Below, piece after piece: positions 5,354-18,371 of a stretch of 64,000 bases of DNA. The translations under genes were made by a program, and so were the position numbers. Source of the DNA: the human T2T-CHM13v2.0 reference genome, Homo sapiens; the NCBI RefSeq assembly GCF_009914755.1, contig NC_060935.1; one strand, given 5' to 3'. The notes beneath the pieces were generated by a model. The model was not told the origin of the DNA, did no database searches, and saw only the letters and a list, made by a program, of their open reading frames with translations. Numbering within the stretch: position 1 is the stretch's first letter; the number at the start of each line of letters is the position of its first letter.

Positions 5354-6380
5354 TTGTCTTTACTTAAATTACAAAATTAGCTGGGGGCGGGGGGCGGGGA
5401 ATATGCATTAGAATGGAAGGAGAACATACTTAACATACCATTGGAAGGTGGAACTCCTAATACTTGAGAATATTTTTGAGAACTGTTTAATTCTCACTGT
5501 AGAAAGATGTCCCCTTTGAATGACATTAAAAATTCACCAGAAGAGTGAAGAATAATAGTTAAAATGTCACATAAGTAACAAGAGTGTCAAAACATAAAGT
5601 GTTCTCAAAGGTTAAAGTACGTATTTGAGATAGAGGAGAGAATAAATAAGAGTTAATTAATTAGACTTCATTAGGTGAAAAGACTTTTCTAAAATCTTCC
5701 GTAATAATAGAAGATATTAATTACAATAATTAAAATATACAAAAAATAAAAGCATTAAAATAGTGAAAAAATTTAAAAAGAGTAAACTTGAAAATTATTT
5801 AATTTTTAATCTCAAAAATCAGAAAGTGATTTTATCAATGTCTTAAAAAATTAAAATAAAAACCAACTTAATAATGTAAAAGATGGGAAGTTTCCACCGG
5901 GCTGGGTGCCAGAGCTAGGGCTTCCCTGAGGACGCAGAAGCAAGAAGCAGGGACCTTGGCACGCACCAGACTTTCCCTCCTGACAGAGCCTAAGCCCCCC
6001 GCCCACGCCTCAGGCCCCCGGCATGGTGCTGCTGGCTGGGACCCAGCCACAGGGTGGCGGGGAGCGCTGCGTGACCCTGCCACCGCCGTCCCCACTCCTA
6101 GGCACACAGGTCGAGGAGGACCGCGCTGACTGCAAAGAGTTCCAGGACTTCTCCAGTCTGCCCGACACCCGCAGCATCACCTGGGACGACTCTTTCTACA
6201 CTTTCCAGGAGGAGGAGGAGCACGGCTTCCAGGGCGTGGAGAGCGTACTGGAGGAGGGCGTCCTAGAGGAGGTCGTATTGGAGGCATGGGGCTGCTGCAG
6301 ACTTTGGTGCGGCAGGGGGTGAGCATTGAGAAGACGTAGGAGCTGACCACAATGGCTAGACCGGCCTTGATGTCGCCTGC
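5354..6380 (+). repeat. Older inverted paralog of 27718-28742 (~5% diverged)
   Basis: Reverse-complement match to 27718-28742; about 11 mismatches in ~200 bp checked at 5401-5606. Confidence 0.95.
5885..6380 (+). pseudogene. ANKRD33B: ANKRD33B processed pseudogene, 5' fragment (5'UTR, exon 1, start of exon 2), truncated by a 1863-bp deletion
   Basis: ORF 6023-6322 MVLLAGTQPQGGGERCVTLPPPSP...DFSSLPDTRSITWDDSFY matches the ANKRD33B N-terminus as I recall it; frameshifted, TAG at the NGR position; fused to an Alu at 6381. Confidence 0.9.
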
Positions 6381-6605
6381 AGATCACCTGAGGTTGGGAG
6401 TCTGAAAGTAGCCTGACCAACATGGAGAAAACCCGTCTCTACTAAAAATACAAAATTAGCCGAGCATGGTGGCACATGCCTGTAATCCCAGATACTCAGG
6501 AGGCTGAGGCAGGAGAATCGCTCGCACCCAGGAGGCAGAGGTGGCAGGGAGCCAAGATCGCGCCATTGCACTCCGGCCTGGGCAACAAGAGCCAAACTCT
6601 GACTC
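6381..6605 (+). mobile_element. 5'-truncated AluS (AluSp-like), copy of the Alu at 25630-25911
   Basis: AGATCACCTGAGG...CATGGAGAAA...CTACTAAAAATACAAAATTAGCC...GGCAACAAGAG. Confidence 0.93.
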
Positions 6606-9600
6606 AATCAACAAAACCTCAATTTATTAAAGAGTATTTTCTGTGTGATTTTGTATTTTTAATTGTTATCCAATTTGTCAAGTTTTACAAGTGATAGGGC
6701 CCCTTGTATCCAAGACAGTTTTACTACACTTGCCTGAAGACCCTGTATTTAAAATACTGTTTCTAGCAATACATATTTATAATATCTATAGGAGTTTACA
6801 CAGAAATCATGGGATTCTCTCCTTTTTGGCTGTTTGTTTTGGTCTTTTCTTCCCATTGTGGGTGCACATGCACACTGCATGTTTTTATTAATTAGATTAA
6901 GTGATGCCGGATATTTCTGTTTGATGGAGGGATTGACTCATTCAGCCACATGATCAAGTGAGAAAGAGATATCATATTTTATTGTATCTTTTTAGAAAGT
7001 ACTATCCATACATATTGGGGAAAAACATTTATCGTCAAATTATAAAACAATGCAGATATAAGCATGTATGTATTGCTAGAATTAAACTCTTTTTAATCAA
7101 GGAGTTTTAGATAAACTGGATAGAAAATCTTTAACATATTAAAAATAGATATCAGGGAAAAGTGTCATTTGATAAAATGGGGGAAATGTAATAGATGATT
7201 ACCAGAAATACAAAATTAAGCCGTATATGCTCTTAAGTAAATCGAATCCAGACATCTTTAAAATATAAAAAAAGGATGCAACAAGAGTAAGATGCAAATT
7301 AAAGGAATTGGGGGAGGTGATGTTTAGAACAAGCAAAGAGAATGCAATGGGAAGCAAACATATTTTAGGCAAATTCTCCTGGAGTGGACCAGACAGCCCT
7401 CTTTTCCAGACTCAGTTCCAAAGAGTCCCTTATGTGGGTATTTCTTTTATTTTTCCTTTGAGGACTGCACTTGGTGTTTAGTTCAACCTCATGCGGACCT
7501 CATGGAATTTCCAAGACGTAGGTCCTTGGCATTGTGGCACCTTCCTGCCACACGCACATAATTCACAGCATTACCAAGTCACCATGAGCTCCACGCTCAC
7601 CTCTGTCAGCCCAGGACCCAGCCAGGCAGTGTCACATGGTCTCCCAGGCATGCCTTTCCAAGCCGGCTATCCCTGCTGCGAAAGTTGTGAAGGCACTGGT
7701 CTGGGGAGCTGAGCCCTGGGCCTGTCCTAAAGCTCCATAGGTGACTGCACTGCATCCCACATGGAGAGCTGCAGCTCTAACAGAGGGATTTTGAGAGGCC
7801 TCAGTCGCCTTTAAGTGGCACTTCCAGGACACCCATCTTGAGCTCTCACAAATGGCTCCACCTTCTCAAGAATGTCTAATTGTCATTGGAACAGCCAGTG
7901 TCTGGCAGCTTCGCTCGGGCTGATGTGGCATCTGACCCTTGGTGGGTGGCCAGACATTCCTTCCTGTTTCTGCCATGGGAAGTTGACACTGGGAATGGTA
8001 TGGAGCCCCCACTTCTACACTAAGCCTTGGGTGTCTGCTGCTTCCAGGTCACAAATGGATATTTCTGGTCCTGACCAGCCACTACCACACTGTAACCGAT
8101 GCTCATAGTCTCCAGGGATGTGCAGAACAGCAATGGCAGGACAGCAAACAACTGGCGATTTCCCCAGGTCCCACACTGTTCCGGAGTGGGCGTGTTGGGT
8201 CCCTGTTCCCAATGTGTTCCATCCTTACCCAGGTGCACAGGGTACCTTGGGGCCAGCACAGGGCTTGTCAAGTAATGCTCCTGGTGTCCACAAAACAGCT
8301 CCAGAGATACCTGCATTTTGAAAAGCCTGCCAAGCCAACAAGTATGGGGCAGGACCCAGATTGCTTTGGCAAATATGAAGGTGAGCTGGCCACTTGCCTG
8401 GTGAGTAGAAGCTGCCTTTACCTGGCCAGTGTATGCAACTTGAGAGAAAATGACAATTTCACGGGGGGGTTCTGGTGGGACTGGGAAGCCTGACCTTCCC
8501 CGGAGCTTTGGTATGGCCCCAGTGGAAAGACTGGATTTTGAAAACCCACCAGAGCCAACTGAAAGAAGGGTCATCCCTGATGAGATCCCAGACTCCCCCT
8601 GGTCTCTCTGGACTCACTTTAGGCGTGCCTTGCCTGTTGGCATCCCTTCCCTTTGGCCCATGAGGCAGGTCCAGGTAGCTTCTGCAGCTGTGTGCCTGGG
8701 TACTGGCCCAGCACTTCTCATTTTTGCCATGTGGAAGCAGATTTGCTAGTAGAGGAATTTTCCAAGTCAAAGGAAGTGTCACCGAGACTCTTTCCTCCAC
8801 CTATCGAGAACCCATGATCTTGGTTTCTTATTATCTTTGGAGTGGGCAGCAGAGGAGACAAGCAGGCCTCCAGCCAGGCTCAGGGAGTGTGGGAAGGCAG
8901 GGAGAAAAGTCTAGAAGATGGGGAAGTAGAGCCACCTTGAGGGGGTGTCCTGGGGTCAGTGTCGAGGTGATCAGATGAGCCAGTTTATATTTAAGCAACA
9001 TTATTATGTTCAATTATTTTGGGTAAGGGATTCCTCAGGGGAGGTGTGGTCATCTGGTCCCAGAGGTGGAGTGCAATGCCCACTCATCTTCCTGAGCCAT
9101 TTGGAAGCCCTTTCTTCTAGCCCTAGGTACTGGTGACACAGGCTCCTCGGTCTCAGGAGGTGCACAGGGCTGGGGGGGGTGCAGGCTTCTTGTCACTTAC
9201 ATACTCAGCACGATTGGGCATCAGGCATTCAGAGATCTTAGAGTGGCCTCTCTAAAAACCTGGTGTCCTAGGAGAACATTTATTATTTTTGTCTATTTTT
9301 GTTTCTTTGAACTGCTGCATTCACTCACTGAGGGCTCGCCCTCCGTGCACCCCTCATGTTGTTCAGGAAGGAGGGGACTGACAAGCATGGACCCCTTTCT
9401 CCCCTTCTGTCAGTTGCCACCACACTGTCCCCACTGGCTTTATCACCATGTTCTCCCACCCCTGTTGCCTCATCTCTTCTTCCTCATTCACCCTTCCTTC
9501 CTTTGCCTGTTTTCTTCCCCAAGTTGGTTAAGTTCTTTATCATCCCTGGCACCACCTACCCTGAGGTCTACCAAGGACAGAAAAGCAGGGGCCTCTGTGA

Positions 9601-16989: not shown

Positions 16990-17142
16990 ATTTATATATA
17001 TATATAATGTATTTTATATAATATATATTTTTATACATATATAATATATATGTATTTTATATATATTATATATTATAATATGTATTTTATATATATTATG
17101 TATACACACACACATATATATATGTATATACATATATATATA
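16990..17142. repeat. (TA)n-rich low-complexity tract, probably the decayed tail of the adjacent Alu monomer
   Basis: Interrupted TATATA runs with repeated TAATATGTATTTTATAT units. Confidence 0.9.
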
Positions 17143-17292
17143 GATTGATGGATAGTCTGGTTCTGTAGCCTAGGCTGGAGTGCGGTGGTGCAATCACAGC
17201 TCACAGCAGCATTAAACTGCTAGGCTCAAGTGATTCTTTTGCCTCATTTTCTCATAGAGCCAAAATTACAGATGTGAGCCACTGCACCCAGT
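17143..17292 (-). mobile_element. FLAM/AluJ monomer
   Basis: GGCTGGAGTGCGGTGGTGCAATCACAGCTCAC...GCTCAAGTGATTC...GATGTGAGCCACTGCACCCAG. Confidence 0.85.
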
Positions 17293-18371
17293 CTATTAAT
17301 TCATGTTGTTGATAAAAGCATAAGAATTATCTTTATTATAAATTAAGAAACAGAATATCTTTAAGGAAATATTATATCTTTTAGGAAAAATAAAATCTTC
17401 AGTAGTTATAGACTCTTGTGAAAACCGCCGTTACCAATAGCAATTTTGTGTATGTCTATATAACACATACATACGTAAATATATATAATATATACATGAT
17501 TTTTTTCACATTTGGCAGTCATTTAAGAACTTCTTTTACCATATAAAATCTAATTTATATTGGTAAAAGTGAAATAAGTAAAATTTGCTGTTTAGTGAAA
17601 ACTTTGTTTAGCAAGTTAAATGAAGCTGTAGAAAGTGTGAATTGGATAATAGATATAAAGATATGTCATGAAGGCTTCACACATGGACAAATAGAGGTAA
17701 ACTAGGAGAGTGATAGTGACCTAAGGAGGATGAGAGTATCATGTATGTCCTATAAACAGCATAATGTGTGAGTGACTGTAGCACACAGTAGAGCTAAGTA
17801 GAGAAGATGAGGAGAGAACATATTCAAGGGTGTAATGTTTGATAATTTTTTCAGAGTAAGCAAATGAATTCAGGAAGCCAAAAAATCCCCATTTTGGATG
17901 TATAAAACATAAATTTACTTTGTTTTGCATGTGTAAAACAATACATTTTGGCTGATTTTTAGTATTTCTCTGTCTCTGTTGGCTGATTCATTATGATGTG
18001 TTTAAGATTGAAACCACACTGTAAAGAGCTCAATATCAGAAAGAGTTTCTGGCTATCTAAACTACAAGTTCAAAAGCCTTCTATATAAGAAACCTCTTTA
18101 CCAACGCTGCAAATAATAGAATAAAATATGCTAGAATTAGCAAGGCACGGTGTCAGTAGATTCCAATTCTGATGCAAGATGCCACATTATCTGTAAATTA
18201 GCCCTGCTTATGATTTTCCTATTAAACTGGTTGCGTTCCATGTTGTGGTTCTACAGTCTGAGGTCTTCCCAAATCTCTTTCATATCTCATCCCTTGATTT
18301 GTTTATCAATGGGGGTTTGACACCCAAAGCGATTTGTTTCTCTGATGTTCAAATTCATAGTTCTTTTATAG

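What the first reader, a model, noticed from the sequence alone, without database searches (positions are those of the whole stretch)
5354..18017. Breakpoints record a two-step inverted template switch (deletion-inversion-duplication)
Seen: inverted homology extends outside the left arm (5354-6498 versus 25737-28742) but at ~5% divergence, and drops to near zero inside the shared Alu (last outer mismatches at 6396, 6492, 6498). At the inner ends, the left arm runs on naturally into the spacer (96-bp exon, 603-bp intron, RING exon), whereas the right arm starts mid-intron at 18017 (AAACCA|CACTGT versus ancestral TCAAGG|CACTGT). Inference: synthesis left old paralog A inside its Alu, copied ~11.5 kb of inverted paralog B backwards (arm plus spacer), then jumped non-homologously to 18017. 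This matches the homology-then-microhomology pattern of inverted-repeat-mediated BIR/MMBIR rearrangements. It predicts an ancestral allele with one arm, a reversed spacer and extra lost sequence.
Basis: partly seen in the sequence, partly recalled or inferred. Interest (0 to 1): 0.82.

Follow-up and report, generated by a model that had tools for sequence, protein, structure and literature searches.

The report
Old gene-converting palindrome, not recent switch
Two 7.8-kb inverted copies of pseudogene DNA beside the chromosome 11 centromere are almost identical, most likely because an old palindrome keeps correcting one arm against the other, not because of one recent copying accident.

Summary
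Arms 6379-14214 and 18017-25856 are inverted copies around a 3,802-bp spacer. Past position 6498 they differ by 3 substitutions plus slippage in a (GAAA)n tract. Outside the arms, 5354-6378 and 27719-28741 are only about 93.5% alike. The 18016|18017 junction is non-homologous (1 shared base) and unique in this genome: 9 paralogs run through it in the ancestral order.

- The identity step lies 120 bp from a 1,863-bp deletion specific to the left copy (2-bp microhomology, not Alu-Alu). That is where a heterology would stop arm-to-arm gene conversion.
- The outer segments are sister lineages (98/98 support), so the inverted pair is old.
- On the window's lineage the arms gained as many private substitutions as sister paralogs (ratio 1.08). 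Spacer, deleted-segment copy, outer segments and flank gained 1.4-2.7 times more (Fisher p = 0.0006). The arm/non-arm contrast is therefore old. Y-palindrome P6 shows the same pattern.
- Arm-to-arm divergence (3.9e-4) matches the X-palindrome steady state (4.7e-4).

Best reading: an old fold-back-type palindrome held together by ongoing gene conversion. Against it: no GC-bias signal. Ape or pangenome haplotypes, which I could not reach, would decide.

The parts
1..5342 (.). 171-bp tandem array (alpha-satellite type; the name is recalled). It abuts the left copy and runs in the opposite orientation to the array at 35627 onward.
   Evidence: TRF finds period 171, 31.4 copies, 83% matches over 1-5351. 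Against the right-hand array there are 0 plus-strand and 288 minus-strand BLAST hits.
5343..6378 (+). O_L, the outer old-homology segment of the left copy. Its left end is a non-homologous join between the satellite and an Alu-internal position.
   Evidence: 93.3-93.7% identical to 28741-27719. Sister to O_R with 98/98 support; tips 0.041 and 0.029. Junction letters read.
6378..6379 (.). Deletion junction specific to the left copy. The 1,863 bp present at 25857-27718 and in all 6 paralogs compared are missing here. There are 2 bp of microhomology. The right breakpoint lies about 60 bp inside an Alu; the left breakpoint is not in an Alu.
6379..6498 (+). Transition zone of the left arm, with 3 mismatches to the right arm in 120 bp. 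At 6396 the right copy is derived. At 6492 and 6498 the left copy is derived.
   Evidence: 120-bp windows in O hold 3-15 mismatches, and only 3% of sliding windows hold 3 or fewer.
6379..14214 (+). Left arm. It holds genomic sequence derived from the 3' part of ANKRD33B (80-83% to chr5:10.587-10.595 Mb) plus intron sequence of a TRIM49-like pseudogene.
12780..12935 (+). Interrupted (GAAA)n microsatellite. It carries the only indel differences between the arms.
14215..18016 (+). Spacer, 3,802 bp, single copy. It continues the left arm in the ancestral order.
   Evidence: Collinear with 4 chr2 paralogs and with chr11 paralogs up to 18016/18017. Window-private 91 against sister P55 47.
14658..14882 (-). 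Degenerate RING-like first coding exon of a TRIM49-like pseudogene, with stop codons inside. It reads toward the left arm.
   Evidence: Translation. The sister locus is annotated as a TRIM49D1 pseudogene whose 5' end falls at the matching place. Pfam gave 0 families for a 48-aa piece.
18016..18017 (.). Inner inverted junction, AAACCA|CACTGT. It has 1 bp of possible microhomology and is unique in this genome.
   Evidence: The flanking inverted similarity is no better than at 14% of random positions.
18017..25856 (-). Right arm, the reverse complement of the left arm.
25857..27718 (-). K_R, the ancestral 1.86-kb segment kept only on the right. It holds ANKRD33BP2 (26113-27158) and the first ~60 bp of the Alu.
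   Evidence: plus the RefSeq rows given with the finding.
27719..28741 (-). O_R, the outer old-homology segment of the right copy.
28742..35628 (+). Right flank of the duplicon, with TRIM48-like pseudogene exons (LOC100420449). It is collinear with paralogs and has no counterpart on the left.
   Evidence: 95% to chr11:55813553-55820503, 55239715-55246629 and 50020586-50027236.

Best explanation
The window holds an old autosomal palindrome built from one copy of a TRIM49-like/ANKRD33B-pseudogene duplicon.

**Step 1 (inferred).** Roughly 10-15 My ago by a rough clock, an inverted duplication joined the end of what is now the spacer (18016) to the inverted arm (18017). The join was non-homologous and had the fold-back or template-switch geometry, leaving a 3.8-kb single-copy loop.

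**Step 2 (the deletion is shown; its timing is inferred).** The left copy lost 1,863 bp by a microhomology-type deletion. This left the 1-kb outer segments cut off from the arms.

**Step 3 (inferred from patterns).** Arm-to-arm gene conversion has since kept the 7.8 kb between the spacer and that heterology nearly identical, at a mutation/conversion steady state of 3.9e-4. Meanwhile the outer segments, spacer and flanks diverged freely. The abrupt identity step is therefore the edge of the convertible tract, not a template-switch breakpoint.
For: 1. **The inverted pair is old.** O_L and O_R are sisters (98/98 support, shared branch 0.013) but 6.3-7% apart. They share 8 derived sites, of which only 1 is a CpG transition.
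2. **The identity step sits at a heterology.** It lies 120 bp inside the arm from the left-specific 1,863-bp deletion, which is present in the right copy and in 6 of 6 paralogs. Those 120 bp show intermediate divergence, 3 mismatches against a mean of 7.6 in O. The derived states are on both copies, so they are not copying errors.
3. **Relative-rate test** (outgroup: chr2 paralog; sisters: chr11:50.03 and 55.80).
   - Arms: window 114, sisters 118 and 94; ratio 1.08 (95% interval 0.85-1.34).
   - Five non-arm segments: window 198, sisters 120 and 96; ratio 1.83 (1.49-2.22); Fisher p = 0.0006.
   - 7 of 7 non-arm segments have a ratio of 1.38 or more; 3 of 3 arm segments have 1.3 or less.
   - ML tips agree: 0.0247 for the arms, 0.0323 and 0.0457 for the non-arm sets.
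   - Shared-derived patterns are balanced in every segment.
   - Only 4 of 121 window-private changes in O_L, O_R and K_R match more distant paralogs, so the excess is not imported.
4. **Published precedent.** In Y palindrome P6 the arms evolve slower than the spacer by 1.38-1.48 fold (PMC8600007, passages read).
5. **Arm-to-arm divergence** is 3 substitutions in 7,716 bp (3.9e-4). The median for conserved X palindromes is 4.7e-4 (PMC8981503, passages read).
6. **No closer donor exists.** The six other chr11 copies of the arm are 93-95% identical to it (13 of 13 candidates scored).
7. **Spacer length.** 3,802 bp is typical of fold-back inverted duplications, whose median is 3,428 bp (PMC3907307, passages read).
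Against: - **No GC-biased signature in the arms.** Window-private weak-to-strong against strong-to-weak changes are 41:48, and the sister mean is 37:47.5. X and Y palindromes show strong GC bias.
- **No theoretical reason for the slower arms.** Unbiased conversion should not slow substitution, so the slower arms are an empirical parallel, not an explained mechanism. The rate test was devised after seeing the data.
- **Asymmetry between the arm edges.** The inner 1,285 bp of the arms show no differences, while the outer 120 bp show 3.
- **A same-family pair that is not homogenised.** chr11:50.03(+) and 50.06(-), about 23 kb apart, are only 95% identical.
- **No cross-species or population evidence of age** could be obtained.
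Confidence: 0.62

Rival explanations
1. One recent (under about 0.4 My) replicative event with two template switches between old inverted paralogs. There are two versions. The reader's version: synthesis leaves the left paralog in the Alu, copies the right arm and its spacer backwards, then jumps to 18017. The mirror version: a broken end at 18016 folds back, copies the left arm, and returns by homology into the old right paralog.
For: - The inner junction is non-homologous and unique.
- The arms are identical right up to that junction, with 0 differences in the last 1,285 bp.
- The sequence downstream of the spacer is missing.
- The pattern of one junction in homology and one with little or no microhomology is that of rearrangements mediated by inverted repeats (PMC11293582, passages read).
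- There is no GC-bias signal in the arms.
- The spacer length fits fold-back events.
Against: - The switch would have to fall by chance within about 150 bp of an unrelated deletion edge in 7.8 kb of available homology.
- The arms should carry the same long private branch as their lineage's neighbours but do not: p = 0.0095 against the right lineage and p = 0.0005 against the left lineage.
- Two old inverted paralogs are required in any case.
Confidence: 0.2
2. An old palindrome whose arms had diverged like the outer segments and were re-homogenised recently, either by one long conversion tract or by a few.
For: - The inverted pair is old.
- The tract is bounded by the heterology and the spacer.
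- Multi-kilobase conversion tracts are reported for Y palindrome P6 (title of PMC3723533, seen in the search listing only).
Against: - A converted arm would inherit the donor arm's full, accelerated private branch. The arms instead show a ratio of 1.08.
- A conversion needs homology on both sides, yet no old variants remain in the last 1,285 bp before the spacer.
Confidence: 0.12
3. An assembly artefact: a collapsed or mis-joined inverted copy in the reference.
For: None from my calls. The region is repeat-rich and flanked by satellite DNA.
Against: - The two arms differ at specific sites and in the microsatellite.
- Each arm is flanked by distinct, collinear paralog-like sequence.
- Sequencing reads were not available to test this directly.
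Confidence: 0.02

Closest known systems
Large sex-chromosome palindromes kept by arm-to-arm gene conversion (human Y P1-P8; primate X palindromes)
   Same: - Inverted arms more than 99.9% identical around a unique spacer.
- Arm-to-arm divergence of 3.9e-4, close to the X-palindrome median of 4.7e-4.
- Arms evolve slower than the spacer, as in P6.
- A testis-type multigene family (TRIM) in the surroundings; the expression pattern is recalled, not tested.
   Different: - Autosomal and pericentromeric, embedded between satellite arrays.
- Short arms of 7.8 kb holding only pseudogene and intron sequence.
- No GC-bias signal.
- The outer limit of the arms is set by a deletion in one arm.
Fold-back inverted duplications (PMC3907307)
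   Same: - An inverted duplication with a single-copy spacer of a few kb: 3,802 bp here, median 3,428 bp there.
- Loss of the sequence beyond the spacer.
   Different: - Here the junction shares 1 bp at most, while 13 of the 21 sequenced junctions there share 2-8 bp.
- No terminal deletion or dicentric outcome.
- The event is ancient and fixed in the reference, not a de novo variant.
DUP-TRP/INV-DUP rearrangements mediated by inverted repeats (PMC11293582, PMC4352052)
   Same: Two junctions in cis. One lies inside inverted homologous sequence and one is a microhomology or blunt join.
   Different: - There is no triplicated segment and no duplication flanks; only a two-copy inverted repeat is present.
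- The 'homologous junction' coincides with a heterology edge.
- The rate data argue that the two junctions are not of one recent age.
Plastid inverted repeats with slowed substitution
   Same: Two inverted copies kept identical, with slower substitution than in single-copy DNA. This is known to me only from a reference title seen and from recall.
   Different: An organelle genome with a different recombination machinery. There the effect comes with raised GC content, which is not seen here.

Membership tests
Palindrome maintained by arm-to-arm gene conversion | Inverted arms of several kb or more, over 99% identical, around a unique spacer | tested here: met
   Arms of 7,836 and 7,840 bp, 99.81% identical including the microsatellite, with a 3,802-bp spacer.
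Palindrome maintained by arm-to-arm gene conversion | Arm identity far higher than the age of the duplication predicts | tested here: inconclusive
   The adjacent outer segments are sisters yet 6.3-7% diverged, and the arm/non-arm rate contrast implies long-standing arms. This evidence is indirect. Orthologous loci were not available.
Palindrome maintained by arm-to-arm gene conversion | Arm-to-arm divergence near the mutation/conversion steady state | tested here: met
   3 substitutions in 7,716 bp (3.9e-4), against a median of 4.7e-4 for X palindromes.
Palindrome maintained by arm-to-arm gene conversion | GC-biased replacement pattern in the arms | tested here: not met
   Window-private weak-to-strong against strong-to-weak changes are 41:48 in the arms; the sister mean is 37:47.5. 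Power is limited, at 89 sites.
Palindrome maintained by arm-to-arm gene conversion | Paralogous variants seen to be exchanged between arms across haplotypes or species | not testable with these tools
Two-step BIR/MMBIR rearrangement mediated by inverted repeats (DUP-TRP/INV-DUP type) | Junction 1 lies inside pre-existing inverted repeats and makes a chimeric repeat | tested here: inconclusive
   An identity step at 6498 within shared sequence is compatible with this. But it lies 120 bp from a deletion edge, which is where a conversion limit would also fall.
Two-step BIR/MMBIR rearrangement mediated by inverted repeats (DUP-TRP/INV-DUP type) | Junction 2 is a microhomology or blunt join back to the original strand | tested here: met
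   18016|18017 shares 1 bp and is unique in the genome.
Two-step BIR/MMBIR rearrangement mediated by inverted repeats (DUP-TRP/INV-DUP type) | An inverted triplicated segment flanked by duplications | tested here: not met
   The genome holds only two copies of the arm and one of the spacer. The next-best copies are 93-95% identical (13 of 13 candidates scored).
Two-step BIR/MMBIR rearrangement mediated by inverted repeats (DUP-TRP/INV-DUP type) | Both junctions were made in one event | tested here: inconclusive
   The rate contrast between arms, spacer and flanks argues against a single recent event but cannot date the junctions directly.
Fold-back inverted duplication | A single-copy spacer between the direct and the inverted copy, typically a few kb | tested here: met
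   3,802 bp here. The published range is 766-70,466 bp with a median of 3,428 bp.
Fold-back inverted duplication | Short inverted (micro)homology between the spacer end and the start of the duplication | tested here: not met
   1 bp only. The imperfect 20-nt similarity is matched or beaten at 14% of random positions.
Fold-back inverted duplication | Loss of the sequence distal to the break | tested here: met
   The segment that follows the spacer in chr2 paralogs has no counterpart at that place in the window. Only scattered repeat hits were found.

The most novel reading that the evidence does not exclude
This is a selection-free test case, made only of pseudogene and intron DNA on an autosome. 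It shows that palindrome arms accumulate substitutions about 40% more slowly than their own spacer and flanks, with no GC bias. Equivalently, a palindrome may raise mutation in its spacer and flanks. Either way, the puzzling arm/spacer rate gap seen on the Y chromosome would be a mechanical property of converting inverted repeats (copy correction or template-guided repair), not the result of selection on arm genes.
Probability: 0.3. Interest if true: 0.6.

Novelty: new member of a known kind. Interest (0 to 1): 0.33.

Why it matters
If the best reading holds, the structure is one more converting palindrome, on an autosome next to centromeric satellite. It is not a fossil of a single complex replication accident.

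It teaches two practical points:
- An abrupt identity step next to an indel in one copy marks a conversion limit and should not be read as a breakpoint.
- Lineage-specific branch lengths in arms, spacer and flanks, scaled to sister paralogs, can date a palindrome from a single genome.

The slower arms in DNA with no coding function also bear on the open question of why Y-palindrome arms evolve more slowly than their spacers.

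Tried and rejected
**Ideas tested and dropped**
- *Alu-Alu recombination as the cause of the 1.86-kb difference.* Rejected. Only the right breakpoint is in an Alu, and the join has 2 bp of microhomology.
- *The three mismatches at 6396, 6492 and 6498 as copying errors of error-prone synthesis.* Rejected. 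At 6396 the right copy is the derived one.
- *A closer donor paralog for the arms.* None exists. The six other chr11 copies are 93-95% identical.
- *Parallel CpG decay as a false cause of the O_L/O_R sister grouping.* Rejected. Only 1 of the 8 shared derived sites is a CpG transition.
- *Conversion from TRIM49/64-type paralogs as the cause of the long non-arm branches.* Rejected. 4 of 121 window-private changes in O_L, O_R and K_R match those paralogs.
- *An earlier split of the window lineage as the cause of the long non-arm branches.* Rejected. Shared-derived patterns are balanced in every segment.
- *A GC-biased conversion signature.* Looked for and not found. The first, single-sister test seemed to show an excess of strong-to-weak changes only. 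With two sisters, all classes are raised alike.
- *Imperfect inverted similarity at the spacer ends as a fold-back primer.* Not significant.
- *Pfam match for the RING-like piece.* No match.

**Literature.** A full-text search for 'ANKRD33BP' found 0 papers. I made no other search for this locus, so I claim only that this term is absent from the searched library. Supplementary files were not opened.

**Not possible here.** Ape orthologues, pangenome haplotypes and sequencing reads were not available.

Full report
**What is there**

The window lies in pericentromeric chr11. Between two 171-bp tandem arrays of opposite orientation (1-5351 and 35627 onward) sits a partial inverted pair of one duplicon. 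Its layout is:

- O_L, 5343/5354-6378
- left arm, 6379-14214
- spacer, 14215-18016
- right arm, 18017-25856
- K_R, 25857-27718, which holds ANKRD33BP2
- O_R, 27719-28741
- a 6.9-kb flank with TRIM48-like pseudogene exons, up to 35628

The arms are 99.81% identical over 7,842 alignment columns. Past position 6498 they differ by three substitutions (8803, 10687, 12527) and a few 1-2-bp length changes in an interrupted (GAAA)n tract. O_L and O_R are 93.3-93.7% identical.

The arms derive partly from the 3' part of the ANKRD33B gene on chr5 (80-83% identity). The spacer carries a degenerate RING-like exon on the minus strand. Pfam did not recognise it.

**What the paralogs show**

Six other chr11 copies are 93-95% identical to the arm, and several chr2 copies are 87-90% identical. 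All of them place arm and then spacer in the order seen on the left side of the window.

- *Inner junction.* A 200-bp probe across 18016|18017 had 21 of 21 candidates scored. Only the window spans the junction. Nine paralogs match one half or the other and stop at 18017. The chr2 copies continue with sequence that is not present at this place in the window. The join shares at most one base, and the weak inverted similarity of the spacer ends is no better than at 14% of random positions. So the inner junction is a genuine, derived, non-homologous inverted join with loss of the sequence beyond it. Its 3,802-bp single-copy loop is typical of fold-back inverted duplications, whose median spacer is 3,428 bp (PMC3907307, passages read).
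- *Outer boundary.* The right copy and 6 of 6 paralogs compared carry about 1.86 kb that the left copy lacks. The left-copy join at 6378|6379 has 2 bp of microhomology. It runs from a non-Alu site into a position about 60 bp inside an Alu, so it is not an Alu-Alu event. The step to near-identity comes 120 bp further in. Those 120 bp hold 3 mismatches. At 6396 the right copy is derived, and at 6492 and 6498 the left copy is derived. They are therefore old lineage differences, not copying errors. In O, 120-bp windows hold 3-15 mismatches, and 3 or fewer occur in 3% of sliding windows.

**Age of the inverted pair**

In a maximum-likelihood tree of the 1-kb outer segment, O_L and O_R are sisters (98/98 support). 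The shared branch is 0.013 and the tips are 0.041 and 0.029. Other chr11 paralogs have tips near 0.02. Eight shared derived sites support the grouping, and only one of them is a CpG transition. The inverted pair is therefore local and old.

A rough clock puts the split of the outer segments at about three-quarters of the depth of the chr11 radiation. I estimate that at roughly 10-15 My, which is an inference and is not calibrated here.

**The test that separates the models**

I counted substitutions private to the window lineage and private to two sister paralogs (chr11:50.03 and chr11:55.80), using a chr2 paralog as the outgroup.

| Set | Sites | Window | Sister 50.03 | Sister 55.80 | Ratio (95% interval) |
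|---|---|---|---|---|---|
| Arms | 5,641 | 114 | 118 | 94 | 1.08 (0.85-1.34) |
| O_L, first third of spacer, K_R, O_R, flank | 6,595 | 198 | 120 | 96 | 1.83 (1.49-2.22) |
| Rest of spacer | 2,217 | 56 | not available | 31 | about 1.8 |

- All 7 non-arm segments have a ratio of 1.38 or more. All 3 arm segments have 1.3 or less.
- Fisher tests against the arms give p = 0.0006 for all non-arm segments, p = 0.0095 for right-lineage segments only, and p = 0.0005 for left-lineage segments only.
- ML tips agree: 0.0247 for the arms against 0.0323 (right lineage) and 0.0457 (left lineage).
- Per-kb bins show the same picture. They also suggest that the outermost ~0.86 kb of the arm behaves like non-arm sequence (22 against 13 and 9).
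- The tree is star-like in every segment, and the excess changes do not come from more distant paralogs.

If the arms had been ordinary parts of the left or right lineage until a recent event, they would carry the same long branch as their neighbours. They do not. The distinction between arm and non-arm is therefore old.

Y palindrome P6 shows the same contrast, with arms slower than the spacer by 1.38-1.48 fold (PMC8600007, passages read). The arm-to-arm divergence here (3.9e-4) is close to the median of conserved X palindromes (4.7e-4; PMC8981503, passages read).

**Against this reading**

- All substitution classes are affected alike, and there is no GC-bias signal in the arms: 41:48 against a sister mean of 37:47.5. 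X and Y palindromes show strong GC bias.
- Unbiased conversion does not by theory slow substitution, so the mechanism behind the slower arms remains unexplained.
- I devised the rate test after seeing the first counts.
- The inner 1,285 bp of the arms carry no difference, while the outer 120 bp carry three.
- Another inverted pair of the same family, about 23 kb apart, is only 95% identical.

Three points go against the rest of the model.

1. That is where conversion should stop.
2. Arm and spacer do not share one history: 114:94 in the arms against 91:47 in the spacer, relative to sister 55.80.
3. Crossing-over between the arms would flip the spacer.

I put the old converting palindrome at 0.62, a single recent two-step switch in either direction at 0.20, a recent re-homogenisation of a diverged old palindrome at 0.12, and an assembly artefact at 0.02. 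The remainder is unassigned.

**Novelty**

Converting palindromes, fold-back duplications and two-step switches mediated by inverted repeats are all described. This is a new member of a known kind. A search for 'ANKRD33BP' found no paper. The one point of wider interest is that the slower arms occur here in non-functional autosomal DNA and without GC bias.

Noticed in passing
window 1-5351 and 35627-46000+: The duplicon pair is embedded between 171-bp satellite arrays that run in opposite orientation to each other (0 plus-strand and 288 minus-strand hits). The left copy joins the satellite at a position inside an Alu. The inverted symmetry may therefore once have reached further out.
   Followed up: partly
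G000 chr11:50070733-50071146 and chr11:55246630-55247243 (L028, L027): Two complementary halves of one outer segment (query positions 615-1027 and 1-616) lie on opposite sides of the centromere. It looks as if one copy was split by a pericentric rearrangement or by the centromeric array.
   Followed up: no
G000 chr11:50025270-50027236 (flank of the sister paralog; L031): Private changes on this sister's flank are strongly GC-directed: 22-25 weak-to-strong against 2-3 strong-to-weak. No other segment or lineage examined shows this. It may reflect biased conversion from another copy.
   Followed up: no
window 5354-6378, 14215-18016, 25857-30700: All single-copy parts of this locus evolve 1.4-2.7 times faster than the same parts of two sister paralogs, in every substitution class. 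The cause is unknown. Satellite-embedded chromatin, or mutagenesis around the palindrome, are guesses.
   Followed up: partly
G000 chr11:50028642-50038120 (+) and chr11:50062416-50070350 (-): A second head-to-head inverted pair of the same duplicon lies about 23 kb apart and is only 95% identical. It resembles the 'two old inverted paralogs' arrangement and shows no homogenisation.
   Followed up: partly
window 14328-14960: This part of the spacer, around the RING-like exon, has matches of about 78% at many pericentromeric sites on chr2, chr9, chr10, chr14, chr22 and chrY. It is presumably a wider family of TRIM-like pseudogene fragments.
   Followed up: no
window 268-1083: RefSeq lists an 'OCT4 hESC enhancer' inside the satellite array.
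   Followed up: no
window 25000-25856 / 6379-7000: The outermost ~0.86 kb of the arm has as many window-private changes as non-arm sequence (22 against 13 and 9). This part may have joined the homogenised zone later. The counts are small.
   Followed up: partly
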